Positions 1 to 63,989 of a stretch of 64,000 nucleotides of DNA are shown in pieces. The DNA comes from a virus. Numbering within the stretch: the stretch's first letter is position 1; every line of letters starts with the position of its first letter. The stretch lies in UHGV virus genome UHGV-1352853; one strand, 5' to 3'. The position numbers and the translations under genes were made by a program. Below the pieces are notes generated by a model. That model was not told the origin of the DNA and made no database searches. It saw only the letters and a list, made by a program, of their open reading frames with translations.

Positions 1-945
1 GGATGCGACAGGGCAATATAAACAACGTTTAACCTGCCCCTCCACGACCTTGATAGCACCCTTGCCACCTTTTTCAGCCACGAAGATACGAGCAGATGCC
101 ATATCATCAAAGTTTTTGGTACTTCTGGCTCCAGGTACATCTACCTTAGAAGCATCTGAGAAGTATTTGAACTGTGGCTCTGTTCGCCACAACTCCTCGT
201 CAGTACATTCAGGGATTTCCTCCTCAGGAGCATCCCAGTACTTTTCAATGAGGTGAATCTTCTCTTCTACCCAACGTTCAGTCTTCTCGACAGATAGCAA
301 CGGAATGTCCTTATGCATAATACGATTAGCAGGATAATTCGGATTGCTATTAGCCATGTGTTTCATGAAGTCGGTGAAGATGTAGTTAATACGAATTACA
401 TCCTCAGTAATGATGTCGTTGTGAATCCAACGGTACAAGCTGCCTTGCATCTTGTGTTCATCATCACGGGAACCAGCAACCCAGGAATAGGTTGAGGTAG
501 ATTTGAAGTCTTGCAACAGACCTTCTGTTACGATGTCGAACTTACCACCGATAGTCCAACCCTTAACTACCCTGGTTCCACGTTGTTCAATGTAGATTGG
601 GATAAGGTCAGGGTTAGCATCAAAGTCTGCCTTGGTTGGGTTAATGACTACTGCATCAATTACTCGTTGAGGATAACCCAACTTCTTCAATGCAGTCTTA
701 TGACCTAGCTTCCAGGCTTTCTCGATAGAGTCATGTAAGCCAGTACCCATTGATGTGGAGACGAAATCCATAACATCAATAGACTGGTCACTGAAATCTA
801 CACGATGTTTCATGACAATTTGCTTAAGAGGTTTAAGCAATGTAGTAGCAGACAGATACTTAGGATTGTCTACATAATCATACTCGTCATGCAATAGCCA
901 TACAGCCAGAGCCAGTGAGACATCGTGGTTGTTGGTTATCTTCAT
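1..945 (-). CDS. Partial CDS (5' end at 945, runs off the window). Possible PD-(D/E)XK-type nuclease, Cys-rich C-terminus.
   Basis: Open frame on the minus strand from ATG 945-943 to the window edge (MKITNNHDVSLALAVWLLHDEYDY...). Motifs FDIV...DFK match nuclease motifs II/III. C-terminal CLYCP. ATGA overlap with the upstream stop. Confidence 0.45.
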   Translation of the reverse strand, partial: MKITNNHDVSLALAVWLLHDEYDYVDNPKYLSATTLLKPLKQIVMKHRVDFSDQSIDVMDFVSTSMGTGLHDSIEKAWKLGHKTALKKLGYPQRVIDAVVINPTKADFDANPDLIPIYIEQRGTRVVKGWTIGGKFDIVTEGLLQDFKSTSTYSWVAGSRDDEHKMQGSLYRWIHNDIITEDVIRINYIFTDFMKHMANSNPNYPANRIMHKDIPLLSVEKTERWVEEKIHLIEKYWDAPEEEIPECTDEELWRTEPQFKYFSDASKVDVPGARSTKNFDDMASARIFVAEKGGKGAIKVVEGQVKRCLYCPVAS

Positions 946-1723: not shown

Positions 1724-4299
1724 GCGAATGCCTTTTGAATTGTTTGATGAACTTCTTCTGGGGTAGCGTGATTTGGAATTTCAATCTCGTTAGCCCACGT
1801 TGGGTAGAACAAGGATAGTTCCCCACCCAAACCAACTTCTGGGTGAGCAATATCAGGGTGGTCTTGCCAGTTAACAGCCTCAACCAAGTGCTTGTTCGTG
1901 TACTGCAAGGTATCCATGTTGTCACGAATCATGAAGTATTGGGCATCATGAATGTGAATACAAGGACGTATATCTAACCTGAACTCACTGGTTCTGACTT
2001 TACGCATAAACTCTGAGCCAGCACGGTTATTCAGTAGACACCAGCTTTGGCCCAATGCATTACCAGCAGTCCTGCCTTCTGCTTCTGCTTCATATGGAGT
2101 CTTGCATGTCCCACGTAAAACCTGAGCCAGTAAAGGAGTACGGACTCTCAAACCAAATGCAGCAGTTACATAACCAGTTTTAGCAGCTTCGTCTAGCTTA
2201 GCCTGAACCCAGGCATCACTAACTACATAGAGGTCGTGATAACGTTTCTCTGTGAGTTTTGCTTTCTCTTCAGAGAAGCCACAGTTTTTCATTAAGCCCA
2301 TATACGTACCACCATAGGTAAGCAGGAAGGTTGGAGCCTTCGAGTCACTACGTAGTGATTTGTACTTATGCTGAATGGAGTTAATAGATTCTACCGTGTC
2401 TTCTATGTCTGGCATTTGCTCGCCAAAGTAAGCATACGCACGAAGACTATGACCATCATAACCATCGGTATATACCTTAAGCTTCTGTGGGTCTTTGGTA
2501 GTCAGTGCAGAAATTCTGTCTTCCAGCGAGGCGAAGTCCAAACCGCAAAATGCCCAGCCCGGTGGAGCTTCGAAGCATTTCTTAATCTTCTTGGCATATT
2601 TAGAACCGGATGGAATTGTTTGTAGATTAGGCTCTGAAGCCGATAACCTACCGGAGACTGTGCCACCAAGATTGAGGTTACCGAACAGGTAATGCCAGCC
2701 ATCCGGTCCCGGTTGGGCATTCCTGAAAGCTGGTATAAAGCTAGTGATAATCTTATCCACGAGCTTATAGTCGATAAGTGCATTAAGCAGTTCCTTAACG
2801 TCTTCACTTTGCGTATGCGTACGCAGTGCTTTAATAGTGTCACCGTCAGTAGCAGGTTGCTTGCTCTTAGTAAGCCCAAGAACCGGTAAGCCTATATAAT
2901 CAAATAACAATTTCTGTAGTTGTGGACCAGAGTTAGGATTAAACTCTATGTCACAATCAGCCAGGGTTACCTGCTTCTTTTTAAGCTTAGCATTCTTATC
3001 GTCTACCCATTCCTGACGAAGCATCAGGGTGAAATTCTTCATGAGCTTGGACTCACGAATAGTTTTCAGTGCCTGGTTCCTGTCAGTTTCCATTTCCTCA
3101 GCTACTTGGTTAACGGTATCCATATTCATAGGCATACCGGTTAACTGCATCTGGATGATGTCTTCGCAAGCTGGCTTAAAGATGTTGTTATAAACATCTA
3201 GTTGGTCATCAGCAATGAGAGTATCCCAGTGCTTCTCGTAGGTGTACCAGGTACACAAACCGTCAATGAGGTTATAACGTAATAGCTGCTCATTAGGAAT
3301 AAGACGAATGTCTTTAATATCATCCTGAGCATAGTTACCAGCATACTCCTGAGCCTGGTCTTTCAGACTAAGGTGATTACCAGCACAGCTGTTAGTAGCC
3401 AGATAAGTGATTAACTTAGTACAGTCCCAGTTACGTAGCATGATTTCCATGCCATGCAGTAAGCCTTCTGTATCAATCAGGTTATCCATGAATAACTGAT
3501 AGATAAGCACATAAACGTCATAGCTAATGTTGTGATACATCTGCCGTTGAGTGTACTTAATGAAGAACTCACGCAGAAGATTTCGAACAATATCATTTCT
3601 GTTGATACGCCCGTATGGTGCTTCTGTAGCTCCAGGAATCGGCTCGTAGTCCACATTAAAGGCTATGCCTTGTGTCTTACTCCAACAGAACGTAATTGTT
3701 CCTATACCTGCGTTATAGTGCTTTAAACCAAATGATTCGATGTCTATAGCTAAAGGCTTATTCATCTCAAGCAACTGGTCTAGCCAAGCTTTAATCTTCT
3801 CTGGAGTATCTGGGTAGGCTTCAAACTCAATGATTCCCTGACCTGGTTCAGCATACTGTCCACGTATATGGTTAATTAATGCATCCATACCTTGAGCAAT
3901 CTTGGATTTCACTACAGGTGGGTCATAAAAGACCTGTCTGTAACTAGGCGTATAGATAACCTTCTGTTTACCCCATACTGAATCACAAACGTAGCCTAGA
4001 TTAGCCTCTGCTTTAGCTTCTTTAGTCAGTATTTTGAAGTAGTCAGAATCGGTACAGATAATGTACTGAGTCTCTGCATCATCCAGTACTTGTTGCAGTT
4101 CCTGCTGTATGAACTCCTTAATCTCCCTTGCAGGTGTCTTCTTTTTGCCTGGGGCAGAATGAAGCTCAATGAAGATGAAATCTTCCATGCTTAGGTCATT
4201 AGGCAGCAGGTAGGTTTTAATCATCTCCTCCCTTCGGATTTGATGACCGAGGATAGCAATAGGATACTTACCCGTATCTTGAGAGGTGATGTAACGCAT
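1720..4299 (-). CDS. DNA polymerase, family A (Pol I-like), 859 aa
   Basis: Motif A-like DFASLEDRI, motif B-like RSDSKAPTFLLTYGG (K...F...YG), motif C-like IHIHDAQ. Size and position match the N4-like replicative polymerase. Confidence 0.9.
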   Translation of the reverse strand: MRYITSQDTGKYPIAILGHQIRREEMIKTYLLPNDLSMEDFIFIELHSAPGKKKTPAREIKEFIQQELQQVLDDAETQYIICTDSDYFKILTKEAKAEANLGYVCDSVWGKQKVIYTPSYRQVFYDPPVVKSKIAQGMDALINHIRGQYAEPGQGIIEFEAYPDTPEKIKAWLDQLLEMNKPLAIDIESFGLKHYNAGIGTITFCWSKTQGIAFNVDYEPIPGATEAPYGRINRNDIVRNLLREFFIKYTQRQMYHNISYDVYVLIYQLFMDNLIDTEGLLHGMEIMLRNWDCTKLITYLATNSCAGNHLSLKDQAQEYAGNYAQDDIKDIRLIPNEQLLRYNLIDGLCTWYTYEKHWDTLIADDQLDVYNNIFKPACEDIIQMQLTGMPMNMDTVNQVAEEMETDRNQALKTIRESKLMKNFTLMLRQEWVDDKNAKLKKKQVTLADCDIEFNPNSGPQLQKLLFDYIGLPVLGLTKSKQPATDGDTIKALRTHTQSEDVKELLNALIDYKLVDKIITSFIPAFRNAQPGPDGWHYLFGNLNLGGTVSGRLSASEPNLQTIPSGSKYAKKIKKCFEAPPGWAFCGLDFASLEDRISALTTKDPQKLKVYTDGYDGHSLRAYAYFGEQMPDIEDTVESINSIQHKYKSLRSDSKAPTFLLTYGGTYMGLMKNCGFSEEKAKLTEKRYHDLYVVSDAWVQAKLDEAAKTGYVTAAFGLRVRTPLLAQVLRGTCKTPYEAEAEGRTAGNALGQSWCLLNNRAGSEFMRKVRTSEFRLDIRPCIHIHDAQYFMIRDNMDTLQYTNKHLVEAVNWQDHPDIAHPEVGLGGELSLFYPTWANEIEIPNHATPEEVHQTIQKAFA

Positions 4300-15129: not shown

Positions 15130-15636
15130 TTATTTACTGCTTCTTGCAGCTACGGGTTTGTTTTCCTGGTTCATATACTTGCCATTGTAATTAGCAGGTT
15201 CTTGAACCAGATGAAATAATACTTGAGCTATCCCAGCACCAGCCGGGATATGCAGTTTCTTACGACCATGATAGACCAGTTCAAGGGTAAGATACCCTTT
15301 CCATCCTGGTTCTATTACGGTATTGAACACTGATAATGCACGCCTTGCCCAGGTAGACTTATCGTGAACGATAGCTACACAAGATGGGGACATGTTGAAC
15401 TTCTCAATTGCTGAGGCCAATGTGAACTTACCAAAATGTCGTGATACTTGCTTTCCATCAACGACCTTCACCATTGGAATCAACCCAAATAAGCGATAGA
15501 AGGTAATATCCTGTTTGATGCGAATATCATAACCAGCTTCACCTAATCCATAGCTTACACCATGCTCGGATACCTTACGGTCAGGAACATCCAGCAACTG
15601 AGATGAGCGATATAGAGAATTACCATTAACAACCAT
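15130..15636 (-). CDS. dcd: dCTP deaminase / dUTPase-superfamily enzyme
   Basis: IEPGWKGYLTLELVYHG...IPAGAGIAQVLFH resembles the dCTP-deaminase core (DPGFRG.ITLE... pattern). Confidence 0.75.
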   Translation of the reverse strand: MVVNGNSLYRSSQLLDVPDRKVSEHGVSYGLGEAGYDIRIKQDITFYRLFGLIPMVKVVDGKQVSRHFGKFTLASAIEKFNMSPSCVAIVHDKSTWARRALSVFNTVIEPGWKGYLTLELVYHGRKKLHIPAGAGIAQVLFHLVQEPANYNGKYMNQENKPVAARSSK

Positions 15637-16811
15637 TATTTCATTCCTTTAGGGATATGAACTACCTCCCCAAAAGGTACGGTAGCATTGGGATTATTCA
15701 GAACACACCAGATGATAGGAATATCAAATGGCAATTCCTCCATTGGACGAACATACATATCGGAGAATATGATTGCAGCGGTTGGCTTATTCTTAATAAT
15801 CCATTCGCGTACTGGTTCCAGATTTGTACCACCACGACCAGTAATCTTAATCTCTTCAAAAGTATCTTCTTCAGTGATGTCTATTTCTTCTTGGATAATA
15901 TCGTCGAAGGTAATTAGGGACATCTTCTTAGGATTGAATTGGCTCTTGACGTAGGCAACCTCTGAGTTAAAACGCAGAGAGTCTGCACTACTAATAGAAC
16001 CAGATACATCCTCAAAGTAGGCCAAGTGACGTAAACGTCCTTCATCATCTTCTAGAGAAGGTAGATAGATGTCAGTGTAACGACGGTTAGGTCTGGCCCA
16101 CGTATAATGAGTATCATCAATGTCGGTAAAGAAGTTCATAAGGACTTCTTGCCATGGAACTACTGGTTTAAGGAATTGGGTAATAACCTCTTCTATACGA
16201 CCAGCACCTTTACCTGGCATTGTTCCACCAGCCATCTTCTGGCTTTGCATTGCACGTACTACGTTGTTGACGACAGCACCCTGGGACTGCCCCGGAGTGG
16301 GGGATTTCATGTCGCCAGCAAGACCTGCTCCAGCACCCCCTGACGGCTTCTGCCTTTTCTGAGGATTCTTCATCAGGTCATCGTAGATGTCTTCTTCGAC
16401 CCATCCTTTATATTGTGGGTCTTTGCAAATACCTTTGTCGATACCAGTGAACTTGTAACCATCTTCTTCTAACTGAAGGTTAATGAAATGGTCACATGCC
16501 TGGTTCCAGACTTCCAGGTCACGGCTTCCACGACGGATGTCATGCAAATATGCTACATGCCAGAGTTCGTGCATTAACACTGTTTCTCTTGCATCTGGAC
16601 ACATCCATATAAAGAAATCTGGATTGAAATGAAGTTCTATCCCATCAGTACATGCAGTGGGACAATCCTCACGTTTCCATGAGAATTTAAGACTACACAG
16701 TAATGAACCAAAGAACGCTGCACTGCGTCCTAGGAAAGCCTTAGCTTGAATACGATCATATTCGCGCATTAGTTGTTCATCACTAAGGGAGTGCTGAGGA
16801 AATTGGTTCAT
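15636..16811 (-). CDS. vWA-domain protein with N-terminal HExxH metallopeptidase-like domain (DUF2201-type). Predicted partner of the adjacent MoxR-like ATPase.
   Basis: HELWHVAYLH (HExxH) in the N-terminal half and a MIDAS-like DVSGSIS in the C-terminal half. Start placed at MNQFPQ (16811), which gives an 8 nt overlap with the ATPase stop. The ORF track's longer start would overlap by 77 nt. Confidence 0.6.
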   Translation of the reverse strand: MNQFPQHSLSDEQLMREYDRIQAKAFLGRSAAFFGSLLCSLKFSWKREDCPTACTDGIELHFNPDFFIWMCPDARETVLMHELWHVAYLHDIRRGSRDLEVWNQACDHFINLQLEEDGYKFTGIDKGICKDPQYKGWVEEDIYDDLMKNPQKRQKPSGGAGAGLAGDMKSPTPGQSQGAVVNNVVRAMQSQKMAGGTMPGKGAGRIEEVITQFLKPVVPWQEVLMNFFTDIDDTHYTWARPNRRYTDIYLPSLEDDEGRLRHLAYFEDVSGSISSADSLRFNSEVAYVKSQFNPKKMSLITFDDIIQEEIDITEEDTFEEIKITGRGGTNLEPVREWIIKNKPTAAIIFSDMYVRPMEELPFDIPIIWCVLNNPNATVPFGEVVHIPKGMK

Positions 16812-16815
16812 TGTT

Positions 16816-17554
16816 TTATCCGTGAATGTAACGAGAGATGTTAGCAGCAGCCTTACGCCATTCAGGGGTAGCCTGAAGATCTGGTAATGCATTGCCTACT
16901 GTACGGAAGTACAGAATCTTATGGGTGAACGTTTTAAATCGTTCAATGTACTGAAGAACATCAGTGAAGTTTTCTTCAGTAGTTTTGTTAGCCAGATGGT
17001 TAACGGTAGCCCAACACAGGTTGTTATCTTCAGGTAGTGCACAGCCCAAAGGGTCTTTTACTACCTTCTCAATCGTAATCATACGATTGTATACCTGAGT
17101 AAACTGAACAAATTCTGTAGCCTTACCAGCAGTAACGTGGCCTGCATAGTAGATAGAATCTTCATCAGGCAGAGCACCTTCAGGACGGTTCTTGAGGTCT
17201 TTGTTAACAAAGTCCCAAGTACGAGGGCAGCAGAACGTTTTGTTCTTATGGGCTGGGTCAAAGTCATGCAGATAACCAGGGTTAGCATGTAGGAATGCAA
17301 CCAGACGTTCATCCCATTCTTGCGGAATCATTACATCTTCAACAAAGATGTCGAAGTTAAGTTCCATTTCGAAGTGGACAACACGAGACTGCATTGCAGT
17401 ACCCAGTGGGTTAACAATTGCACGGTCAGTAGCTTTGTTACCTGCACAGATAATCATCACATTAGGATGAAGTTTTTTCTGACCAGTCATACGGTCTAGA
17501 ATCAGTTTGTATGCAGCAGCTACTACTTCTTTTCTGGCTGAGTTGAACTCATCG
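16816..17554 (-). CDS. MoxR-like AAA+ ATPase, exon 2 (C-terminal 245 aa)
   Basis: The frame is open upstream of the first Met back to a stop at 17561-17559. It reads DEFNSARKEVVAAAYKLILDRMTGQ... Walker B is completed only after joining to exon 1. Confidence 0.75.
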
Positions 17555-18436
17555 CATTATCTTCACATTAGTTCGCAACTACTAATGCCGTCAGTACACT
17601 CAGTGAATACTGACTGCTGCATGTCACCATGCAGAGGAGACTATATCAAAGCCCTATTACTAGGGCTGTTACCGTTTCGAGTGCCATTAGCTTGCACCCT
17701 ACTCTACTCACTTCCACATTTCTGTGTGTTTTCGATAGTCGTTTGGCATTTAAATGAAATTGGTACTGTACCCAATCTGTGTAAGATTGTTGTTAGTTAC
17801 GTAGGAGTCATAGGCTTTGGCAGCCTCTTCCTCTGTTTTGTAACGTCCCAAACCAATAGATTTCTTGTTAACCCTTATATGGGCACACCATCTTTGTCTT
17901 TGCTCACTCCAGGATACACCTACGTATTTGGAGGAGCCTCCACGATTTTTGTTACTAGCGTTGGCATGTCTGTTCGACAACAATCCAGTATCCCAAGCAT
18001 GTTTAATATTTTGGGACTGGGTACACCATTCCAGGTTACTCTCGTGATTATTAAGAGGGTTTCCATCTATATGATTAATAACAGGATAGTTATTAGGGTT
18101 TGGTACAAAGGCTATCCCTACTAAACGGTGAACTTGGTATTTGTACACTTTACTATTCATGTACAGGTTCACGCAGTAGTACCCTTTGTTATTAAGATAC
18201 GGTTTTATATGTGTCCTATTTTTGTATTTATACTTTCCTTCTTTTCGGCGTACTACACCAAAGTTGGAAACTTCATACGGTAAGTCAGGCACATCTTTCC
18301 AAACTTCATTATTTAGCACAGGATTGTCTCCAATTGATTAAAACTCAAGTATACACCTGAGCCAACCATATTAGAAGAGGTTCCCTGTTTAGGTAACTTT
18401 CGACATGAGATTGCTCTCATGAAGCCCCGTTAGTTA
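17555..18436 (-). mobile_element. Intervening sequence (probable group I intron, ~882 nt) in the AAA ATPase gene, carrying an HNH homing endonuclease ORF
   Basis: Exon 1 ends ...GWLLFL (last exon base U). The intron ends with G (plus-strand position 17555). Excision joins ct|c to give LLFL-DEFNSA with an intact Walker B and a 350-aa, 1053-nt ORF. There are ~312 nt of non-ORF sequence for a ribozyme core. Confidence 0.6.
17750..18319 (-). CDS. HNH homing endonuclease (NUMOD4-like N-terminus + HNH_3 + AP2 DNA-binding domain), intron-encoded
   Basis: EVWKDVPDLPYEVSNFG (NUMOD4-like). H...NHIDGNPLNNHESNLEW (HNH). KYVGVSWSEQRQRWCAHIRVNKKSIGLGRYKTEEEAAKAYD (AP2). Confidence 0.85.
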   Translation of the reverse strand: MLNNEVWKDVPDLPYEVSNFGVVRRKEGKYKYKNRTHIKPYLNNKGYYCVNLYMNSKVYKYQVHRLVGIAFVPNPNNYPVINHIDGNPLNNHESNLEWCTQSQNIKHAWDTGLLSNRHANASNKNRGGSSKYVGVSWSEQRQRWCAHIRVNKKSIGLGRYKTEEEAAKAYDSYVTNNNLTQIGYSTNFI

Positions 18437-18750
18437 AGGAATAGGAGCCATCCATTATATCCTTCCGGTATTTCATCCCCCTCAATAGGGAATAAGTCAG
18501 CGAATGGGATAAACTCTGCACGGTCACCATTACGGAATGGTAAACCAGATAAGTCTTCCGGGGCAGAAGTAGACAGACGATGGTCTATCAGCTTCATACC
18601 AAATTCTTTTGCAACAGAACGAATAATTGCAGATTTACCCATCCCCGGTGATGAAGTCAGGAACGGTACGTTACCTGCTTGCAAGGCACGGATAATAAAG
18701 TTACGGGCCTGACGTGTATTACATACGGTCAGTGAGTCAATGCTCGCCAT
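18437..18750 (-). CDS. MoxR-like AAA+ ATPase, exon 1 (N-terminal 104 aa, Walker A)
   Basis: Walker A SSPGMGKSAI. The ORF terminates at TAA just inside the intron (18430-18432). Confidence 0.75.
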
Positions 18751-18784
18751 TTACTTACTCTCCTAAAGTTAATGTAATTATTAA

Positions 18785-19111
18785 TTAAGATTTAATACAT
18801 GGGTATGCTGTATCAATTGCCAACAGAACCATGTCTGATGGTACTTTTACTGCATTAACCTTTCGGTCGTACAGAATAATAGAGGCTACTTTGTCAAAGA
18901 CATTTCCTAACTTTAAACTATCTGGTACGCAGTTTTTACCTGCTTCTACACCCATAGTAACCATGCCCATGAAGTAACCCTGGTTCACAAAGTTTCCATT
19001 ATTGGCTTTGTAATCAGCAGCAGCTTCCAACAAAGTTGCACGACTGGATGCTTGAGCACCGAATGACAAAACTGATAAAGCTACTAGAACAACAGCAATT
19101 AAAGTTTTCAT
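18785..19111 (-). CDS. secreted/periplasmic protein with signal peptide (108 aa)
   Basis: N-terminal MKTLIAVVLVALSVLSFGAQASS is a typical Sec signal peptide. Confidence 0.5.
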   Translation of the reverse strand: MKTLIAVVLVALSVLSFGAQASSRATLLEAAADYKANNGNFVNQGYFMGMVTMGVEAGKNCVPDSLKLGNVFDKVASIILYDRKVNAVKVPSDMVLLAIDTAYPCIKS

Positions 19112-26137: not shown

Positions 26138-26593
26138 CTATTTTCCGTGGTTTGGATGAAATCCATATAAATTCTCTGCGTCTAGACGAGCAGCCACAGC
26201 ATCAGTTAACTCCTTAAAGTAACCTAGATGCTTTCTCTTACCCTTTACGGAAATGAACACTTGCCATTTATTGGAAGTTTTATTCCAACGTACACCAGTA
26301 TGCCCTGACTTATTGTTAGCATACTTAGTAGAGTTCATTAGATTGGTTTGTCTGTCTACTAATCTAAGATTCTCAATTCTGTTATCAAGGCGGTTATGCC
26401 ATATGTGGTCTATTTGCATATCTTTGGGGATTGTTCCATAGTGCATTTCCCAAATTACCCTATGCTCACAATATTTAACCCCTTTAACATGAACAAAACG
26501 ATAACCACTTGGGTGTACAGTTCCAGCTCTCTTACCATTTTTAATATGGTATAGTTTTCCGGATTCATATCTGAATATACTATTCCAATCCAT
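26138..26593 (-). CDS. free-standing HNH homing endonuclease (HNH_3 + AP2 domain), 151 aa
   Basis: HRVIWEMHYGTIPKDMQIDHIWHNRLDNRIENLRLV (HNH). GHTGVRWNKTSNKWQVFISVKGKRKHLGYFKELTDAVAAR (AP2). Confidence 0.8.
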   Translation of the reverse strand: MDWNSIFRYESGKLYHIKNGKRAGTVHPSGYRFVHVKGVKYCEHRVIWEMHYGTIPKDMQIDHIWHNRLDNRIENLRLVDRQTNLMNSTKYANNKSGHTGVRWNKTSNKWQVFISVKGKRKHLGYFKELTDAVAARLDAENLYGFHPNHGK

Positions 26594-26765
26594 CTAACAC
26601 CCACCTATGATTGAAGGTAACAATTTTACGTACTGGTTCAGATGTTTGTTGCTTAGCAGCCATACGTTTCTTCATCTTCTGTACGTCAGCTTTAGTTCCC
26701 ATGATTAATGACTTACGCATGTTTAGTACTCCACATAAAGTTAAAAGGTTTATTGTTACGTACAA
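26580..26765 (-). CDS. hypothetical small basic protein (61 aa)
   Basis: ORF overlapping the HNH start by 14 nt. Confidence 0.3.
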   Translation of the reverse strand: MYVTINLLTLCGVLNMRKSLIMGTKADVQKMKKRMAAKQQTSEPVRKIVTFNHRWVLDGLE

Positions 26766-28345: not shown

Positions 28346-28630
28346 TTAAGACAAACGTTTAAGTTGTAATTCATTTGCTTCATACATACAAAATGGGTCA
28401 ATAACCCATTCACTCTCGGTCCACATCTTGGCTTCCTTACGGAACTGGCGACGTAGCTTACGGATTTGTTTCTTTGTAGGTTTAGCAGGGAATAAGTGGC
28501 AAGCAACATAGTGCTGTCTCTCTGTTACGTTAGTAATCTCTGAGAACCAAAGATTCCACTGAGAATCCATCTTACCTAACAATCCACCATTGTTACTCTT
28601 ATTTGCAAACAGGGAAGTTTGAATACGCAT
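28346..28630 (-). CDS. small basic protein (94 aa), paralogue of 27494..27685; C-terminus ...ELQLKRLS
   Basis: ORF immediately downstream of hairpin promoter (b). Confidence 0.5.
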   Translation of the reverse strand: MRIQTSLFANKSNNGGLLGKMDSQWNLWFSEITNVTERQHYVACHLFPAKPTKKQIRKLRRQFRKEAKMWTESEWVIDPFCMYEANELQLKRLS

Positions 28631-28664
28631 GGTTTTATCTCCAATAGTTAAATGATATCCAATA

Positions 28665-28677
28665 GAAGCGGAGCTTC
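28665..28677. promoter_or_regulatory. vRNAP-type hairpin promoter (gaagc-GGA-gcttc), template strand; leftward transcription
   Basis: atccaataGAAGC-GGA-GCTTCttggttttt. Near-identical to the N4 P2 sequence as recalled. Confidence 0.6.
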
Positions 28678-28684
28678 TTGGTTT

Positions 28685-29026
28685 TTAAGACAAACGCTTA
28701 AGCAATTCTGCCTTAGCAGCTTTATACTCTTCCTCAATTCCAGGCCAATCTTCCCGGTCTTGAGAACCAAGCATTTCATGGGCACGGACAGCTTTCTCAT
28801 ACCGTTCCAGTAGTTTTTCCTTATCTGGCTCTCCTTCACAGGATTCCCATTGCCATACATGACCAGTTAGTGGAACCAGTTCTCCTTTCGTAAAGTAAGG
28901 ATTATTGTCCATATTCTTGACAGTAGAATCTTCGGTAAGACAGATACGTTCTCCTTCCAATTCTCCTTCAATAATTGTTCCAACAGGAACAGCAGCAGAA
29001 CCTTTGATACAACGGAATTTAGTCAT
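28685..29026 (-). CDS. hypothetical early protein (113 aa); C-terminus ...AELLKRLS
   Basis: ORF. The 3' end and downstream flank are duplicated at the 3' end of 28346..28630. Confidence 0.5.
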   Translation of the reverse strand: MTKFRCIKGSAAVPVGTIIEGELEGERICLTEDSTVKNMDNNPYFTKGELVPLTGHVWQWESCEGEPDKEKLLERYEKAVRAHEMLGSQDREDWPGIEEEYKAAKAELLKRLS

Positions 29027-29116
29027 GATTTTCTATCCTTAAAGTAGAATAACTATCTATTTAGTTGAACTATCTAATGTTCAAAACAGGAGACTCCGAA
29101 GAGCCTCCTAGATGAC

Positions 29117-29600: not shown

Positions 29601-29855
29601 ATAGCTATCACAATTTTGACATGCAAAAATATTATAGGCACTATCTCTATAAGCAGATAACTTTGAGGTATTAACATGAAAGATGGATGGGGTAACTATC
29701 TCCTATTCATCATAGCGTTTAATACTTAAAACCTCATATAGCTTACTATTTACAAGCAATGGTCCACCTACTCCTACAAAAACTAGGCTGTGTACTATCA
29801 CTGGTTCAGGTAAGCCCTTTACTGTTACATACCACATATTAATCCTTATAAGCAG

Positions 29856-30194
29856 TTAAATAGGAAGGAGCTTTCTGGTGATGATGCGTGCTATACCAGA
29901 GTAATAGTCTGGATGGTTTGGATTACCACTACTATTTCTTACGGTAGCTTCTTTAATAAACACATGAGCATAATCACCTAATGGTATGAAGACTGACCCA
30001 CCTTTTTGCAGGATAACTATCTCTGCATTGCTGTTGGTAAGTAGCTTATGTCCTTGGGCAAAGTCTGCTAACTCTCCTGGTTCCATTATTAGTGTGGAGG
30101 TTCCATAGGTCATAATGTGGATGATTGCTTTTTCTGGTTCAGAGGAATAATGCAGTAAGTCCGTACCTTTCATCCCTAGGAGTTTAACGTTCAT
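29856..30194 (-). CDS. small protein, possible divergent member of the tandem paralogue family
   Basis: ORF of similar size, tightly packed with the family. Confidence 0.35.
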   Translation of the reverse strand: MNVKLLGMKGTDLLHYSSEPEKAIIHIMTYGTSTLIMEPGELADFAQGHKLLTNSNAEIVILQKGGSVFIPLGDYAHVFIKEATVRNSSGNPNHPDYYSGIARIITRKLLPI

Positions 30195-30197
30195 ACT

Positions 30198-30482
30198 TCA
30201 GTACCTTTCCTTATAGATGGGGGTGTTATCCTCGAATGATAGGATGTACTTGTCTGTATTAAGATGCCAAGGACTAAAGCTACCCTGCCAGGACATAGGT
30301 GTTCCTGGCTCAAGTAGATATACTTCTGCCTTCTTATTGTATAGGAAGAGTAATCCTTGTAGCTCATGCAAGGACTGTTCATCTGGAACCAGGATAAGTA
30401 CATCAGCACCTAGGTTAGCTACTTCTATATGGTGGGTGTATTCATCCCCTGGTAGCTCTGAATAAATTTTACTGATAACCAT
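30198..30482 (-). CDS. tandem paralogue family member (motif LVPDEQSLHELQGLLFL ... LLEP)
   Basis: Shares the VPxxExxxHE[LIV]xGxh[FL]L motif with 30800.., 31083.. and 31682... Confidence 0.5.
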   Translation of the reverse strand: MVISKIYSELPGDEYTHHIEVANLGADVLILVPDEQSLHELQGLLFLYNKKAEVYLLEPGTPMSWQGSFSPWHLNTDKYILSFEDNTPIYKERY

Positions 30483-30796
30483 TAATAGCTCTCGTCGCTA
30501 GATAAATATGAGGAAGGATAGAGGGTAATGAGTCTACCTGTAAGAGTAGTAGCTACCATAGGTTCACAGGAGGAGAAGATGTATACAGCGACACCCTCCG
30601 GAACTTCAATGGAAGTATCTATCCTAATAAAGGTAATAGGTGCACCTAACATTAAACAGGTTCCGATGAACTCATCTGCTTTTTCACATTGTTCATAGTA
30701 CATGGTCATGGGTTTACTTATTCCCAACCATGGAGATTTACCTACCCCCAGATTAAGGGGACAGGTACTACGACTACTTAAACCGTAGAAGTGCAT
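30482..30796 (-). CDS. tandem paralogue family member (degenerate motif YYEQCEKADEFIGTCLML)
   Basis: Motif alignment by eye. Confidence 0.4.
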   Translation of the reverse strand: MHFYGLSSRSTCPLNLGVGKSPWLGISKPMTMYYEQCEKADEFIGTCLMLGAPITFIRIDTSIEVPEGVAVYIFSSCEPMVATTLTGRLITLYPSSYLSSDESY

Positions 30797-35129: not shown

Positions 35130-37402
35130 ACTCTCATAACCCATTTAACACGGGCAGTAACGGTTGCTCCAATGACTTTTGCTCTGCTGACCCATTGGTA
35201 GATCGAATCATTGGGGATGCCTACCACGTAGTTAAGGAAGTTTATCTAGCACTGGATAACCTTACTTACATCTATAACTACCTACAGAAATATGGATTGA
35301 TTATTACTGTAGATAGTGAAGAAGCAATCAAGGATATTCCCTTATCCATTGGGAAGTTTGCCCGTGTCTACAATAAGTCTGAGTCAGTTGGTTACTACTT
35401 TACTGACTATCTTTATGTAGATGATGATACCAGTGGCATTAGACCAAATGAACCAGGTGCTACTGGTTCTTGGGTTAGTACCAAAGCTACTGGTTCCAAT
35501 GCCTCGTTTGTTCGCATTTGGAAATATCGGGCCGAGACTGATGGTGTTACGTCTATAAAGCTACCCACGGATGTTCCAATTGTTGGGGTGCAGACTATTT
35601 ACGTGGAGGGGGTAAGACAGGATATCAATGAAGGTTTTTCCTACAATGAGGGTACTGCTACAATCACACTGGCTGACTCCTTAGAAGTTGGTAATCTGGT
35701 TACAGTTATTATAGGTGTAAATGACCCAGATATGGATGTGGATGTTTTCGCTATACTTAAGAATAGTGATGGTGCATCTAATATCGGTACTCAGTCTGGG
35801 GAAACTGTACAACAAGTTATCGACAGAAATTATGCGAATTTACGTGAGCATTGGCGTCGTCAACTTGCAGAAGCTGGCCTTAACCTTGTCGATGGTAGTT
35901 TTGAATATGGGGCTGAAGTGAGTACCCCCACGGATGCTGTTTGGCATATTGCTGAGGGTCAGTGCTATACGTGGGGGGGTTCACTGCCTAAATCTGTACC
36001 TGTAAATTCTAATCCAGAGAACTCTGGTGGAATTTCAGAAGACGGATGGAATAGTGTGACCTCTCAGTCAACACTGACGGTACTGGCTAAGTCTACTGGT
36101 GCACAGAAATCTGGGTATCGTTATAGTGATGTTTACTCCGTACTCTCCCGGTTTATGGCATACCAGGATCATAATATAGCTCAACCGGCACTAGGCCGTG
36201 ATGAATCAACAAACCAAACCATTTGGGATGCACAATCACAACTTGACTTAAAGCATCGTGGGGGTATTTTCGCAGGCAAGGAAACATATGGTATCCGTGA
36301 AAATTCTACCGTAGCATCATTCAGGGCTAACACAGGTACTGGTAGTGCATTTGTCCCTCAAGTAGCTGGAAGCGACGACCTTGCTGTGCTTGCACAAGCA
36401 GGTGCTCTTGATAGCGTAGCTGTTTTCGCTGACACATGGTTAGGCGAATATAACTCATGGGAAGATATTGCTACAGCAAACTATACCGCAACTAGTTTTA
36501 CCGTTAGCGATGCTTCATTGCTTGAAAAGGTGAAAGTTGGTCAGTTTCTGATGACCAAACATTCGCCAAAATATGTTGGTCTGGTGACTGGTATTTCAGG
36601 TGCTACTGTAACTGTCCAGAAATGGGTTATTTATGGAACTTCAACAGTAGGAACGCCAGCTGATGGGGTCGGGTTGTATGTAAACCCTGTTACAAAAGGC
36701 TGGGCATTTAATGGAAATGTTCTGATTGGTCCAAATTCACGTGCAGAAAAATGTGCACTTATGGAACTGGGATTACAGAATAATGGACGAGCTGACTTGG
36801 CATTACTTACAGGTGCTGATGTTGTCCTGCTTGACGGCACTTACGGTGGTGGCGATGCTTACCGAGGACGTGGTACTAGTGAGATAGCAAGATGGGATAA
36901 TAACTTCCATGCCTATGCTGGTACTAAAACCAACTTTCGATCTTCTAATGGATCTGCTTCTTCAGTTTGTTCTATTGCTGCCTTTTATGAGGAAAGTGCA
37001 TCAGCAATAGGTTTCCTTTTTGCTGGTAAGAACACCAATCGTTCCATGTCATTTAATAATGCCAATGGTGTAGAACAGACGGCATTAGCTCCTCATGGAT
37101 TTGAGGTTAAAGGTGGGAAGGGACTGAGTACCGCAGTATCTGGAAGTGTAGTTACTGCTGGTGGTAAAGTTGTAATACAAAACTCATCAGCATTCGCTCT
37201 AGTGCTGCCGGACGCCAGTAATTTTACAGCTGGCCGAGAAATCCACTTTATCGTTACTGGTGTTAGCCCTATCACTATTACAAGTGCACAGTCTGGTGGC
37301 ACTGTTAATGGTAATACCAGCATAATTATCACACCTACTTATGGCTACTCAGAGATGACTGCCACGTATGCAGGTGGTGGATTATGGTATGTGACAAGGT
37401 GA
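35126..37402 (+). CDS. tail fibre / receptor-binding protein 1 (~758 aa)
   Basis: G/S/T/N-rich beta-strand-rich C-terminal two-thirds typical of fibres. Sits in the variable slot between terminase and portal. Confidence 0.5.
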   Translation: MNSHNPFNTGSNGCSNDFCSADPLVDRIIGDAYHVVKEVYLALDNLTYIYNYLQKYGLIITVDSEEAIKDIPLSIGKFARVYNKSESVGYYFTDYLYVDDDTSGIRPNEPGATGSWVSTKATGSNASFVRIWKYRAETDGVTSIKLPTDVPIVGVQTIYVEGVRQDINEGFSYNEGTATITLADSLEVGNLVTVIIGVNDPDMDVDVFAILKNSDGASNIGTQSGETVQQVIDRNYANLREHWRRQLAEAGLNLVDGSFEYGAEVSTPTDAVWHIAEGQCYTWGGSLPKSVPVNSNPENSGGISEDGWNSVTSQSTLTVLAKSTGAQKSGYRYSDVYSVLSRFMAYQDHNIAQPALGRDESTNQTIWDAQSQLDLKHRGGIFAGKETYGIRENSTVASFRANTGTGSAFVPQVAGSDDLAVLAQAGALDSVAVFADTWLGEYNSWEDIATANYTATSFTVSDASLLEKVKVGQFLMTKHSPKYVGLVTGISGATVTVQKWVIYGTSTVGTPADGVGLYVNPVTKGWAFNGNVLIGPNSRAEKCALMELGLQNNGRADLALLTGADVVLLDGTYGGGDAYRGRGTSEIARWDNNFHAYAGTKTNFRSSNGSASSVCSIAAFYEESASAIGFLFAGKNTNRSMSFNNANGVEQTALAPHGFEVKGGKGLSTAVSGSVVTAGGKVVIQNSSAFALVLPDASNFTAGREIHFIVTGVSPITITSAQSGGTVNGNTSIIITPTYGYSEMTATYAGGGLWYVTR

Positions 37403-37435
37403 TACAAGCCCATAACTAATTGAATAGTTATGAGC

Positions 37436-37462
37436 AAAACCCCGCTTCGGCGGGGTATTTTA
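37436..37462 (+). terminator. rho-independent terminator (plus strand)
   Basis: Stem ccccgc/gcgggg, loop ttcg, followed by TATTTT. Lies inside the ORF-track N-terminus of the next gene, which argues for the downstream start at 37487. Confidence 0.65.
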
Positions 37463-37486
37463 AAACTACAACATGAGGATTATCCC

Positions 37487-38992: not shown

Positions 38993-39071
38993 GTGAGGAG
39001 TATATGTCAGGTGAATGACGTAACTAACGTAGACAATTGGTAAAGCCACTGCTGTAAAAGTGCTACGTTAG

Positions 39072-39099
39072 TCTTTAAGCTAAAGCCCTCTAGGGGGCT
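39072..39099 (+). terminator. rho-independent terminator (plus strand)
   Basis: Stem aagccc/gggctt, loop tctagg, followed by TTCTTCCTT. Confidence 0.6.
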
Positions 39100-63739: not shown

Positions 63740-63742
63740 AAT

Positions 63743-63777
63743 AAAAAAGCCCCTCATTAGAGGGGCTTTACTTTTAG
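63743..63777. terminator. bidirectional rho-independent terminator
   Basis: 9 bp stem aagcccctc/gaggggctt with loop atta, flanked by an A-run upstream and a T-run downstream. Lies between convergent genes. Confidence 0.75.
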
Positions 63778-63989
63778 AATCTTTCAATCCGTTTATTGAG
63801 TACATATAGATATGAACCCATGGCTTGATGCTGTAACCCAAGCAGATACTTATCCTCTGGTTCAATTTCACGAGATTTGGGGCTTAGTAAGAAATTACCT
63901 AAAGCTTCATACTTCTCTTTTAGATTATCTCTTTCTGTTAATACTTGTACTTGCTCTGCTGTAAAAGATTTAGTCATGTTTACCCACAT
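63774..63989 (-). CDS. hypothetical small protein (71 aa), convergent to vRNAP
   Basis: ORF on the minus strand, ending at the bidirectional terminator. Confidence 0.4.
   Translation of the reverse strand: MWVNMTKSFTAEQVQVLTERDNLKEKYEALGNFLLSPKSREIEPEDKYLLGLQHQAMGSYLYVLNKRIERF

What the first reader, a model, noticed from the sequence alone, without database searches (positions are those of the whole stretch)
16816..18750. MoxR-like AAA+ ATPase gene split by an ~882 nt intervening sequence carrying an HNH-AP2 homing endonuclease (probable group I intron)
Two minus-strand ORFs (18750->18430 and 17490->16816) encode the N- and C-terminal parts of one AAA+ ATPase, and the N-terminal part carries the Walker A motif SSPGMGKS. 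Upstream of the first Met of the C-terminal ORF the frame stays open back to a TAA and reads DEFNSARKEVVAAAYKLILDR. Removing 17555-18436 (minus strand) joins ...GWLLFL to DEFNSA, which gives a canonical Walker B (hhhhDE) and a 350-aa, 1053-nt ORF. The upstream exon ends in U and the intron ends in G, as expected for group I self-splicing. The intervening sequence contains a 189-aa NUMOD4/HNH/AP2 endonuclease ORF plus ~312 nt of non-coding RNA, enough for a ribozyme core. I am not aware of an intron in this gene of N4-like phages.
Basis: partly seen in the sequence, partly recalled or inferred. Interest (0 to 1): 0.85.

Follow-up and report, generated by a model that had tools for sequence, protein, structure and literature searches.

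The report
Self-splicing intron splits phage ATPase gene
An 882-base T4 td-type group I intron carrying its own HNH homing-endonuclease gene interrupts the AAA+ ATPase gene of this N4-like coliphage just before the Walker B motif; it is a well-supported but ordinary example of a mobile phage intron, and similar splits of this gene have been noted before.

Summary

**The split.** The window is a Gamaleyavirus (G7C-like, N4-like) genome. Its gp24-type AAA+ ATPase gene on the minus strand is split by exactly 882 nt. Of 60 related phage records, 57 lack an insert at this position. The two intact alleles read in full are one 1053-nt, 350-aa ORF, and the junction is GWLLFL|DEFNSA.

**The insert is a subgroup IA2 group I intron, homologous to the T4 td intron.**
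- P1 to P9.2, including P7.1 and P7.2, can all be drawn.
- P7 (GACUAU/AUAGUC) is identical to the td P7.
- Ten ORF-deleted homologues keep 88.9% of pair cells paired, against 34-43% in slid controls. Compensatory changes occur in 42 of 85 pairs.
- The guide sequence pairs with the exon through a U•G at the splice site, and the intron ends in G.

**Rfam.** The gathering threshold is missed (21.7 bits), but T4 td itself also misses it (40.3 bits), because the ORF sits in the P6 loop.

**The ORF.** It is a NUMOD4-HNH-AP2 endonuclease related to I-HmuI. Its SD and GTG start are embedded in P5/P4/P6.

**Mobility.** The exons are about 98% identical to an intron-less phage, while the ribozyme is 98-99% identical to that of more distant intron carriers. 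This points to homing.

**Novelty.** Low. An HNH-split gp24 was reported in Vibrio N4-like phages in 2013, and related introns occupy at least four sites in this gene.

The parts
18437..18750 (-). Exon 1 of the gp24-like AAA+ ATPase gene. It runs from ATG 18750 to the U at 18437, covers codons 1-104 plus the first two bases of Leu105, and contains Walker A (SSPGMGKS).
   Evidence: The ORF appears. It is 98.7% identical to the intron-less CU10EC allele. The alignment to the intron-less alleles breaks here.
17555..18436 (-). Group I intron of subgroup IA2 (td type), 882 nt. It starts UAACUAAC... and ends ...GAUAAUG, the terminal G (omega-G) lying at 17555.
   Evidence: 57 of 60 related records lack an insert at this position. 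It is homologous to the T4 td intron. Covariation over 85 pairs supports the fold. The fold of the ORF-deleted RNA recovers the helices. There is a weak Rfam RF00028 hit of 21.7 bits.
18320..18436 (-). 5' ribozyme segment. P1 guide sequence GGGG lies at 18428-18425 and pairs with exon UCCU at 18440-18437. P2 is 18421-18415 / 18410-18404 with a GCAA loop. The P3 5' strand is 18397-18392. The P4 5' strand is 18388-18383. The P5 5' strand is 18379-18376. P5b is 18361-18355 / 18350-18344. The P5 3' strand is GGAG at 18331-18328. The P4 3' strand is 18323-18318.
   Evidence: The helix map comes, the pair counts and the P1 table. P2 covaries in 7 of 7 pairs, P3 in 5 of 6 with 100% of cells paired, and P4 has 95% of cells paired.
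17750..18319 (-). Intron-encoded homing endonuclease ORF of 189 aa (NUMOD4 + HNH_3 + AP2). It fills the P6 loop. The GTG start spans the P4'/P6 junction, and the SD GGAG is the P5 3' strand. Codons 4-5 (AAUGAA, 18310-18305) pair with the last codons (UUCAUU, 17758-17753) to form P6a. The TAA stop lies in the P6 internal loop.
   Evidence: Pfam gives the three domains. The protein resembles PDB 1U3E, I-HmuI, at E=1.8e-12 over residues 7-120. It matches PHROG HNH families. The pSb-1 homologue starts with ATG at the same position.
17555..17749 (-). 3' ribozyme segment. The P6 3' strand is 17747-17746. The P7 5' strand GACUAU is 17740-17735. P7.1 is 17728-17725 / 17718-17715 with a GAAA loop. P7.2 is 17699-17694 / 17684-17679. 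The P3 3' strand is 17673-17668. P8 is 17666-17661 / 17656-17651 with a GUAA loop. J8/7 is followed by the P7 3' strand AUAGUC at 17644-17639. P9 is 17634-17628 / 17623-17617 with a GUGA loop. P9.1 is 17614-17608 / 17596-17590. P9.2 is 17587-17581 / 17572-17566. The omega-G is at 17555.
   Evidence: blastn finds this segment in 730 phage records, including phages whose thymidylate-synthase and terminase genes are annotated as split or joined. It is 74.5% identical to the KIL1 intron, which scores 94.7 bits on RF00028. U1G carries a compensatory A-U to G-C change in P7.1.
16816..17554 (-). Exon 2 of the ATPase gene. It starts with the C that completes Leu105, then GAU GAG (the Walker B residues D106 and E107), and runs to the stop codon at 16818-16816.
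   Evidence: It is 98.2% identical to intron-less CU10EC.
15636..16811 (-). Context only: the downstream partner gene (DUF2201_N metallopeptidase-like domain plus DUF2201 VWA-like domain; N4 gp25 homologue). It starts 4 nt after the ATPase stop codon.
   Evidence: Pfam gives the domains. The homologous gene is annotated in PhAPEC7.

Best explanation
The 882-nt insert (minus strand 18436..17555) is a mobile group I intron of subgroup IA2, a close structural relative of the phage T4 td intron.

**Splicing.** The pre-mRNA of the gp24-like AAA+ ATPase gene folds into the ribozyme.
- P1 forms between exon UCCU and the guide sequence GGGG, with a U•G at the splice site.
- The core consists of P3-P4-P5-P6 and P7-P7.1-P7.2-P8-P9.
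- An exogenous guanosine bound in P7 attacks after U18437.
- The freed exon then attacks after the terminal G17555.
- The ligated message reads ...UUC CU|C GAU GAG... and encodes the 350-aa ATPase, with its Walker B motif (LLFLDE) restored.

**Mobility.** The P6 loop carries a NUMOD4-HNH-AP2 endonuclease related to I-HmuI. In mixed infections it would nick or cut intron-less alleles near TTCCTT|GATGAG, and repair from the intron-bearing genome would then copy the intron in (homing).

**Control of the endonuclease.** The endonuclease's Shine-Dalgarno sequence (the P5 3' strand) and its GTG start (the P4'/P6 junction) lie inside core helices. Ribozyme folding and endonuclease translation are therefore probably mutually exclusive.

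**What is shown and what is inferred.** Shown: the exact insertion, the ribozyme architecture with covariation, the homology to td, the protein domains, and the intron/exon phylogenetic incongruence. Inferred: actual splicing, endonuclease activity and its cleavage site, and the translational coupling.
For: **1. Precise insertion.**
- Of 60 related records, only 3 carry this insert. The two intact alleles read in full are uninterrupted 1053-nt ORFs.
- Removing the insert gives a 350-aa protein that is 99.1% identical to the CU10EC homologue. It covers PHROG 1297 end to end.

**2. Ribozyme.**
- The 3' half matches 730 phage records by blastn. One is the ORF-less KIL1 terminase intron, which scores 94.7 bits on Rfam Intron_gpI.
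- The T4 td intron, read directly, shares these motifs:
  - CUAAAC(G/A)GGGAACCUCU
  - GACAAUCC(C/U)GUGCUAAAU
  - UAAAUGCC(U/A)AACGACUAUC
  - GAUAUAGUCU..CUGCAUGGUGACAUGCAG
  - the terminal AUAAUG|C
- The ORF-deleted RNA folds at -106 kcal/mol (z = -3.5). On its own it recovers P2, P3, P4, P5, P6/6a, P7.1, P7.2, P8, P9, P9.1 and P9.2.
- On 10 ORF-deleted homologues, 88.9% of pair cells are paired, against 34-43% when the partners are slid. 42 of 85 pairs show double changes, and 0 of 500 shuffles reach the observed values. P3 is 100% paired with 5 of 6 pairs covarying, and P7 is invariant.
- In 11 introns occupying 8 different insertion sites, P1 pairs the exon with intron nt 7-10 onward through a U•G. 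The guide sequence changes with the exon.
- The closely related U1G copy has a compensatory A-U to G-C change in P7.1, and its loop stays GNRA.

**3. Endonuclease.**
- Pfam finds NUMOD4, HNH_3 and AP2.
- The protein resembles I-HmuI (PDB 1U3E) at E=1.8e-12.

**4. Mobility.**
- The exons are 98.2-98.7% identical to intron-less CU10EC but only 92-94% identical to the intron carriers U1G and NAN33P5.
- The ribozyme segments are 97.9-99.1% identical to those two carriers.

**5. The Rfam miss is explained.**
- T4 td itself scores 40.3 bits, below the gathering score of 50.
- The ORF-bearing insertions in the JA29 and phiP4-3 thymidylate-synthase genes give no hit at gathering.
Against: - Rfam RF00028 gives only 21.7 bits (E=0.0058 on 1.2 kb, 0.31 on the whole window). 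The 5' half of that alignment is misplaced inside the ORF.
- P10 is essentially absent: the first exon-2 base, C, faces C8 of the intron.
- P1 has only 4 contiguous pairs, two of them G•U.
- The splice register rests on homology and on the terminal-G rule. Simple subtraction against the intron-less alleles would give an intron ending in C.
- No RNA data exist here, so splicing competence is inferred.
- The covariation alignment was built from sequences whose ORF-deletion boundaries I chose, and the tested structure was derived from the window sequence.
Confidence: 0.9

Rival explanations
1. The insert is a decayed or splicing-incompetent intron, or a homing-endonuclease cassette that merely retains ribozyme-like sequence. 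The ATPase would then be inactivated, or made as two polypeptides (106 aa carrying Walker A, 224 aa starting at Met-17490) that might reassemble.
For: - GenBank and RefSeq annotate U1G and pSb-1 this way, as two ATPase CDSs.
- The Rfam score is below threshold.
- P1 is short and P10 is negligible.
Against: - Every core helix is intact. P7 and J8/7 are identical to those of the T4 td intron.
- Close copies differ by compensatory changes rather than disruptive ones.
- Unspliced, neither fragment has a Walker B motif: exon 1 ends ...LFLN*, and the D-E residues lie upstream of the first Met of the 3' ORF.
- The exons differ from CU10EC at about 1.5% of nucleotides, yet the spliced protein is 99.1% identical. 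The changes are therefore mostly synonymous, and the gene is under purifying selection.
Confidence: 0.06
2. Same intron, different register. The element would be 18435..17554, ending in C, with exon 1 ending at the second U of CUU. This is exactly the DNA that is absent from intron-less alleles.
For: - Intron-less alleles read TTCCTT|GATGAG, so this register needs no nucleotide difference.
- P1 can also form with UCCUU/GGGG.
Against: - Group I introns end in G.
- In alignment A1 the 3' end AUAAUG|C lines up with T4 td AUAAUG|C and JA29 AUAAUG|U, and the 5' end UAACUAAC lines up with td UAAUUGAG.
- All three intron-bearing alleles carry the C at +1.
- Both registers encode the same protein.
Confidence: 0.03
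3. The two ATPase ORFs are separate genes, with an unrelated endonuclease gene lying between them.
For: Database annotations list them as separate CDSs.
Against: - Both fully read relatives without an insert at this site have one continuous ORF across the junction, with no extra sequence.
- The spliced product matches the family profile end to end.
Confidence: 0.01

Closest known systems
Phage T4 td (thymidylate synthase) group I intron, subgroup IA2
   Same: - The core architecture is the same, with long identical stretches: J3/4-P4, P5'-P4'-P6 (GACAAUCCxGUGCUAAAU), J6/7-P7 (AACGACUAUC), J8/7-P7'-P9 (GAUAUAGUCU..CUGCAUGGUGACAUGCAG) and the 3' end AUAAUG|C.
- P7.1/P7.2 are present.
- The ORF sits in the P6 loop, closed by the same UAAAU/UAAAU internal loop.
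   Different: - The host gene is an AAA+ ATPase, not td.
- The guide sequence differs (GGGG against GCCUGA).
- There is an extra P5 extension of about 44 nt.
- P9.1 and P9.2 differ.
- The endonuclease is an HNH-AP2 enzyme that starts inside P4'/P6, not the GIY-YIG enzyme I-TevI with its own downstream start.
HNH-split gp24 homologue of Vibrio N4-like phages JA-1 / VchO139-I (Fouts et al. 2013, PMC3670811)
   Same: - The host gene family is the same (N4 gp24 ATPase) and the virus family is the same (Schitoviridae).
- The JA-1 sequence shows a td-like intron, with UAAUUGUAGGC... at the 5' end and the ACGACUAUC / GAUAUAGUCU core.
- It carries an HNH ORF.
   Different: - The insertion site differs: it lies after ...VQAAA, about 14 codons downstream of the site in this window.
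- The HNH protein is shorter (128 aa), has no AP2 domain, and shares only about 40% identity over 53 aa.
- The published paper only suggested an intron and did not analyse the ribozyme.
Related introns in the same gene of other Gamaleyaviruses (pSb-1/PW8 site; second intron of NAN33P5)
   Same: - They have the same ribozyme family. The 3' core of pSb-1 is 76% identical and that of NAN33P5 intron 2 is 78% identical.
- The endonuclease has the same NUMOD4-HNH-AP2 architecture.
- In pSb-1 the endonuclease start codon lies at the same P4'/P6 position.
   Different: - The insertion sites differ: after codon ~66 (GAAGACCU|U) in pSb-1, and at CCUCGU|ACUUGG (window 17222/17221) in NAN33P5.
- The guide sequences differ.
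- The endonucleases are only 34-37% identical, so these are separate lineages rather than copies.
I-HmuI, the intron-encoded HNH nicking endonuclease of Bacillus phage SPO1 (PDB 1U3E)
   Same: It shares the N-terminal NUMOD4-like region and the HNH catalytic module (E=1.8e-12 over residues 7-120), and it is encoded inside a phage group I intron.
   Different: The C-terminal DNA-binding part here is an AP2 domain instead of I-HmuI's helix-turn-helix. Strand specificity and cleavage site are unknown.

Membership tests
Group I intron (subgroup IA2, td-like) | P1 forms between the 5' exon and an internal guide sequence, with a U•G wobble at the 5' splice site. | tested here: met
   Exon UCCU pairs with GGGG at intron nt 9-12, with U•G at the splice site. 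The same geometry, with guide sequences that change with the exon, is seen in 11 introns at 8 insertion sites.
Group I intron (subgroup IA2, td-like) | The conserved catalytic core P3-P4-P5-P6 and P7-P8-P9 is present, including the P3/P7 pseudoknot and the guanosine-binding helix P7. | tested here: met
   - All helices are mapped.
- 88.9% of cells are paired against 34-43% in slid controls, 42 of 85 pairs covary, and 0 of 500 shuffles reach the observed values.
- P7 (GACUAU/AUAGUC) is identical to T4 td.
- The MFE fold recovers all helices that are not pseudoknotted.
Group I intron (subgroup IA2, td-like) | The last intron nucleotide is a guanosine (omega-G). | tested here: met
   G at 17555 in the register ...GAUAAUG|C. 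It aligns with the terminal G of T4 td, JA29, pSb-1, KIL1, P43 and NAN33P5 intron 2.
Group I intron (subgroup IA2, td-like) | The IA-specific extra helices P7.1/P7.2 lie between the P7 5' strand and the P3 3' strand. | tested here: met
   - P7.1 is CACA-GAAA-UGUG, and U1G carries a compensatory change in it.
- P7.2 is GGGUGC/GCACUC, with 100% of cells paired.
Group I intron (subgroup IA2, td-like) | The sequence reaches the Rfam RF00028 gathering score of 50 bits. | tested here: not met
   - The window scores 21.7 bits.
- As a control, the T4 td intron scores 40.3 bits, also below threshold, and the nrdB intron is not found at all.
- The ORF-bearing insertions in the JA29 and phiP4-3 thymidylate-synthase genes give no hit at gathering, while the ORF-less homologue in KIL1 scores 94.7 bits.
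- The miss reflects the 570-nt ORF in L6, not the absence of a core.
Group I intron (subgroup IA2, td-like) | The RNA self-splices in a guanosine-dependent reaction that ligates the exons. | not testable with these tools
   This needs RT-PCR or an in vitro splicing assay.
HNH homing endonuclease (I-HmuI-like, intron-encoded) | The protein has an HNH catalytic module plus DNA-binding modules and is encoded in a peripheral intron loop. | tested here: met
   - Pfam gives NUMOD4 at 38.3 bits, HNH_3 at 33.3 bits and AP2 at 40.1 bits, all above their cut-offs.
- PDB 1U3E matches at E=1.8e-12.
- The ORF occupies L6.
HNH homing endonuclease (I-HmuI-like, intron-encoded) | The enzyme cleaves the intron-less allele and promotes intron inheritance (homing). 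| tested here: inconclusive
   The evidence is indirect only. Intron and exon similarities are incongruent: the exons are closest to intron-less CU10EC, while the intron is closest to U1G and NAN33P5. The presence of the intron among close relatives is patchy, 3 of 60 records.
Membership of the MoxR/AAA_5 clade is the further requirement, and such proteins usually have a VWA partner. | tested here: inconclusive
   - Walker A (SSPGMGKS) is present, and Walker B (LLFLDE) is restored after splicing.
- Pfam AAA scores 29.4 bits against a cut-off of 21.2, but AAA_5 scores 17.4 bits against a cut-off of 22.
- NCBIfam gives no hit.
- The best PDB relative is a midasin AAA module at E=1.3e-5.
- The downstream gene is a VWA-like DUF2201 protein.
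- Some distant phage homologues are annotated MoxR.

The most novel reading that the evidence does not exclude
The gp24-like AAA+ ATPase gene of Schitoviridae is a recurrent landing pad for td-type introns, with at least four independent sites seen here. The intron in this window would also act as an interference weapon. Its HNH-AP2 enzyme would cut the ATPase gene of co-infecting intron-less Gamaleyaviruses at the Walker B codons. Its synthesis would be gated by the ribozyme fold, because the SD and the start codon lie inside P5/P4/P6. Splicing and endonuclease production would then be alternative fates of each transcript.
Probability: 0.3. Interest if true: 0.5.

Novelty: new member of a known kind. 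Interest (0 to 1): 0.3.

Why it matters
- **Annotation.** Public records of the same element (U1G, pSb-1, JA-1) list two 'ATPase' CDSs plus an HNH gene. At least one PHROG family (phrog_21479) appears to consist of exon-1 fragments. The correct annotation is a joined CDS encoding a 350-aa protein.
- **Biology.** The locus adds a clean case of a td-type intron inserted immediately before the Walker B catalytic residues of an AAA+ ATPase. Together with pSb-1, NAN33P5 and JA-1, it shows that this one gene has been invaded at several sites in N4-like phages. That makes the Gamaleyavirus group a convenient natural system for studying intron homing and phage-phage competition, because close relatives with and without the intron exist.
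- **Method.** Rfam's group I model at its gathering threshold misses ORF-bearing phage introns, including T4 td itself.

None of this changes current understanding of group I introns.

Tried and rejected
- **Rfam at gathering threshold on the whole window.** No hit. At a permissive threshold only a 21.7-bit RF00028 hit appeared, and only its 3' part (J8/7-P7-P9) is aligned sensibly. I did not rely on it.
- **blastn with the 5' ribozyme segment.** It found only the identical element in U1G and NAN33P5, plus one spurious 47-nt hit in an Erwinia phage. Homology of the 5' half therefore had to be shown by structure-guided comparison with T4 td and others.
- **Exact search of IMG/VR viral contigs for the exon-intron junction.** 0 matches.
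- **NCBIfam on both proteins.** No family.
- **Literature searches** for Gamaleyavirus, G7C, U1G and Schitoviridae with 'intron'. No description of this intron was found.
- **Intein.** Rejected, because stop codons follow exon 1 after 4 nt and the insert is not in frame.
- **Group II intron.** Rejected, because there is no reverse-transcriptase ORF and the core matches group I.
- **Free-standing endonuclease insertion.** Rejected, because of the complete ribozyme.
- **P10.** I looked for pairing between exon 2 and the P1 loop and found none worth claiming.
- **Other introns in the window.** A whole-window comparison with CU10EC found no second insert in a conserved gene.
Full report
**What is in the sequence.** On the minus strand of 16816-18750 there are three ORFs.
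- 18750..18430: 106 aa, containing SSPGMGKS.
- 18319..17750: 189 aa, GTG start.
- 17490..16816: 224 aa.

The frame of the third ORF stays open upstream of its first Met and reads C-DEFNSARKEVVAAAYKLILDR after a TAA. Deleting 17555-18436 gives a 1053-nt ORF of 350 aa with ...GWLLFL-DEFNSA....

**Is it more than chance?**
- Megablast of 16700-18900 against 50,697 phage records finds 60 Gamaleyavirus (G7C-like, N4-like; Schitoviridae) records.
- In 57 of them the match covers only about 55-60% of the query, so they lack an insert at this position. Only U1G (two accessions) and NAN33P5 contain it.
- PhAPEC7 and CU10EC annotate a single 1053-nt CDS, annotated in PhAPEC7 as similar to N4 gp24.
- Pairwise blastn places the break at window 18436/17553, so exactly 882 nt are extra.
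- The intron-less junction reads TTCCTT|GATGAG.
- The spliced protein is 99.1% identical to the CU10EC protein.
- It covers PHROG 1297 'ATPase' end to end: residues 4-349 on profile positions 3-354 of 356, E=7e-134.

This is therefore one gene interrupted by an insertion, not two genes.

**What the insert is: protein part.** The 189-aa ORF has NUMOD4, HNH_3 and AP2 domains, all above the Pfam cut-offs. Its residues 7-120 resemble I-HmuI, the intron-encoded HNH endonuclease of Bacillus phage SPO1 (PDB 1U3E, E=1.8e-12). The C-terminal part matches plant AP2 DNA-binding domains.

**What the insert is: RNA part.** Rfam at gathering threshold finds nothing in the window. A permissive scan gives Intron_gpI at 21.7 bits, and only the J8/7-P7-P9 part of that alignment is convincing. 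This negative result is uninformative, as these controls show.
- The T4 td intron scores only 40.3 bits, below the gathering score of 50.
- The T4 nrdB intron is not found at E≤1.
- The ORF-bearing insertions in the thymidylate-synthase genes of Dickeya phage JA29 and Proteus phage phiP4-3 give no hit at gathering.
- The ORF-less intron of Pseudomonas phage KIL1 scores 94.7 bits.

The KIL1 intron and hundreds of others are homologous to the 195-nt 3' non-coding segment of the insert.
- blastn finds 730 phage records.
- Several of the listed hits lie in or next to genes that are annotated as split or joined around an endonuclease: thymidylate synthase (JA29, phiP4-3), terminase (KIL1, FKP3), portal (Vibrio F100) and the AR9 RNA polymerase.

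I then read the T4 td intron directly.
- It begins GGGU|UAAUUGAGGCC and ends ACAUAAUG|CUACCG.
- Translation across that junction gives VFLG-LPFNIASYA. From general knowledge, this matches the conserved thymidylate-synthase motif.
- The window's insert begins UCCU|UAACUAACGGGG and ends AGAUAAUG|CGAUGA.
- It shares with td these blocks:
  - CUAAAC(A/G)GGGAACCUCU
  - GACAAUCC(U/C)GUGCUAAAU
  - UAAAUGCC(A/U)AACGACUAUC
  - GAUAUAGUCU..CUGCAUGGUGACAUGCAG

**Secondary structure.** With the ORF removed, leaving 4 nt on each side of P6a, the 357-nt RNA folds at -106.1 kcal/mol (z = -3.47; none of 100 shuffles folds as well). Unaided, the MFE structure contains P2, P3, P4, P5 with an extension, P6/P6a, P7.1, P7.2, P8, P9, P9.1 and P9.2. 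P7 (GACUAU 17740-17735 / AUAGUC 17644-17639) forms the expected pseudoknot with P3.

I aligned ten ORF-deleted introns (alignment A1): this window, U1G, both introns of NAN33P5, pSb-1, T4 td, JA29, phiP4-3, KIL1 and SL2. I then counted the pairs of the window-derived structure.
- 88.9% of 730 cells are standard pairs, against 33.7-43.3% when the 3' partners are slid by ±1-3 columns.
- 42 of 85 pairs show changes on both sides, against 13-22 in the slid controls.
- No shuffle out of 500 reaches any of the observed measures.
- P2 covaries at 7 of 7 pairs.
- P3 covaries at 5 of 6 pairs, with 100% of cells paired.
- P8 covaries at 5 of 6 pairs.
- P7.2 and P9 are 100% paired.
- P7 is invariant.
- Even the near-identical U1G copy differs in P7.1 by a compensatory A-U to G-C change, and its loop stays GNRA (GAAA to GCAA).

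P1 was examined separately because it must differ between insertion sites. In all 11 introns, at 8 different sites, the last exon base U pairs with a G at intron nt 7-10. The following 3-5 guide-sequence bases match the local exon. Here UCCU pairs with GGGG at 18428-18425. P7.1 and P7.2 assign the intron to subgroup IA, and the td-like layout points to IA2. That subgroup assignment rests on established knowledge, not on a subgroup-specific model.

**Splice register.**
- Both give the same protein.
- The first register is supported by the terminal-G rule.
- It is also supported by column-by-column homology of both ends with td.
- It implies that intron-bearing alleles have C rather than T at exon-2 position +1, making the Leu105 codon CUC instead of CUU.
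- All three intron-bearing alleles have this C.
- The three alleles without an insert at this site that I read have T: PhAPEC7, CU10EC and pSb-1.

The intron therefore sits in phase 2 of Leu105, directly before Asp106-Glu107 of the Walker B motif. This fits the known tendency of phage introns to sit in the most conserved, functionally critical codons.

**Relation of the ORF to the ribozyme.**
- The ORF is exactly the P6 loop.
- The GTG start (18319-18317) uses the last two bases of P4' and the first base of P6.
- The GGAG located 8 nt upstream is the P5 3' strand.
- Codons 4-5 (AAUGAA) pair with the last sense codons (UUCAUU) to form P6a.
- The stop codon lies in the UAAAU/UAAAU internal loop that td also has.
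- In pSb-1 the homologous endonuclease starts with ATG at the same position, and its termini form an 11-of-12 bp P6a (by eye from the sequence; protein).
- The NUMOD4 match begins at residue 5, so no downstream start is plausible.

I infer, but have not shown, that folding of the core occludes initiation. Endonuclease synthesis and splicing would then compete on each transcript. This resembles the known repression of I-TevI translation by RNA structure (general knowledge).

**Evidence for mobility.**
- The window's exons are 98.7% and 98.2% identical to intron-less CU10EC, but only 92.4-94.6% identical to the intron carriers U1G and NAN33P5.
- Its ribozyme segments are 97.9-99.1% identical to those of the two carriers, and the ORF is 94.4-97.9% identical.
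- Three of 60 close relatives carry the intron.

This incongruence is what homing, or recent lateral transfer followed by loss, predicts.

**The wider picture.** The same gene carries related but distinct introns elsewhere.

| Phage | Locus | Insertion site | Notes |
|---|---|---|---|
| pSb-1 (a hit of the same strength and length is listed for PW8, whose locus I did not read) | L005 | after GAAGACCU, codon ~66 | |
| this window, U1G, NAN33P5 intron 1 | window, L001, L002 | Leu105/Asp106 | |
| Vibrio phage JA-1 | L016 | after ...VQAAA, ~14 codons downstream of this site | td-like intron with a shorter HNH ORF |
| NAN33P5 intron 2 | L002 3179-4043 | CCUCGU\|ACUUGG, equivalent to window 17222/17221 | |

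The three Gamaleyavirus endonucleases share the NUMOD4-HNH-AP2 architecture but only 34-37% identity. They are old paralogous lineages, not recent transpositions.

**What was already known.**
- Fouts et al. [quoted passage not shown]
- A group I intron was reported in the td gene of the N4-like Vibrio phage pVa5 (PMC5746245).
- The U1G RefSeq record notes 'HNH homing endonuclease # Phage intron' but still lists two ATPase CDSs. The U1G paper does not mention it.
- I found no paper describing this intron in Gamaleyavirus.

**Verdict.** It is a new, well-documented member of a very well known kind of element. The value lies mainly in annotation: a joined CDS, and fragment 'families' such as phrog_21479. 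It also offers a tidy natural system for homing studies. Splicing and endonuclease activity remain inferred, and RT-PCR across the junction would settle the first in a day.

Noticed in passing
window 26138-26593 (minus strand): A 151-aa ORF with an HNH_3 domain (66.9 bits) and a weak AP2 match lies in a 547-bp segment (26143-26690) that is absent from the intron-less relative CU10EC. It is probably a free-standing homing endonuclease inserted between genes.
   Followed up: partly
L002 (Gamaleyavirus NAN33P5) 3179-4043; equivalent to window 17222/17221: NAN33P5 has a second td-like group I intron of 865 nt in the same ATPase gene, with its own 187-aa NUMOD4-HNH-AP2 ORF. It sits between CCTCGT and ACTTGG. 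The window lacks it.
   Followed up: partly
L005 (Shigella phage pSb-1) 1833-2700: pSb-1 has a related intron plus an HNH-AP2 ORF at a third site in the same gene (after GAAGACCT, codon ~66). The record annotates gp62 (68 aa), an HNH gene, a minus-strand 'hypothetical protein' lying over the ribozyme, and a truncated ATPase. A blastn hit of the same strength is listed for phage PW8, whose locus I did not read.
   Followed up: partly
L016 (Vibrio phage JA-1) ~934-1650: The HNH-split gp24 homologue reported in 2013 contains a recognisable td-like ribozyme (UAAUUGUAGGC..., AACGACUAUCC, GAUAUAGUCUGCUCUACAUGGUGACAUGUAG). It is inserted after ...VQAAA, about 14 codons downstream of the site in this window.
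   Followed up: partly
window 1-67 of the spliced ATPase (18750-18550): PHROG phrog_21479 (68 positions, 'unknown function') matches only residues 1-67 of the ATPase. phrog_16335 matches only residues 1-187. Both look like families built from exon fragments of intron-split genes.
   Followed up: no
window 15636-16811 (minus strand) and homologues in RefSeq records: The gene downstream of the ATPase is a DUF2201_N plus VWA-like DUF2201 protein (N4 gp25 homologue). Several RefSeq Gamaleyavirus records (G7C, U1G, PGN829.1, SP5M and others) label it 'HNH endonuclease', and in U1G it is split into two such CDSs. This is probably a naming error. The 418-aa ORF listed from 16892 is an upstream in-frame extension, and the homologues start at 16811.
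   Followed up: partly
L009 (phage T4) 7596-7826 and the nrdB intron: Rfam RF00028 scores the T4 td intron at only 40.3 bits, below its gathering score of 50. It does not report the nrdB intron at E≤1. ORF-bearing phage group I introns are therefore systematically missed by a gathering-threshold scan.
   Followed up: yes
window 35771-39091; also 28351-29047 and 29668-30491: These segments do not align with CU10EC in an otherwise collinear genome that is 92-99% identical. The 3.3-kb one lies where the CU10EC record ends and restarts, so the two records may simply differ there. None of the three segments was examined.
   Followed up: no
window 63737-63824 (minus strand): A weak Rfam match to the sRNA family STnc100 (29.1 bits against a gathering score of 47, E=0.02). 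It is probably chance.
   Followed up: no
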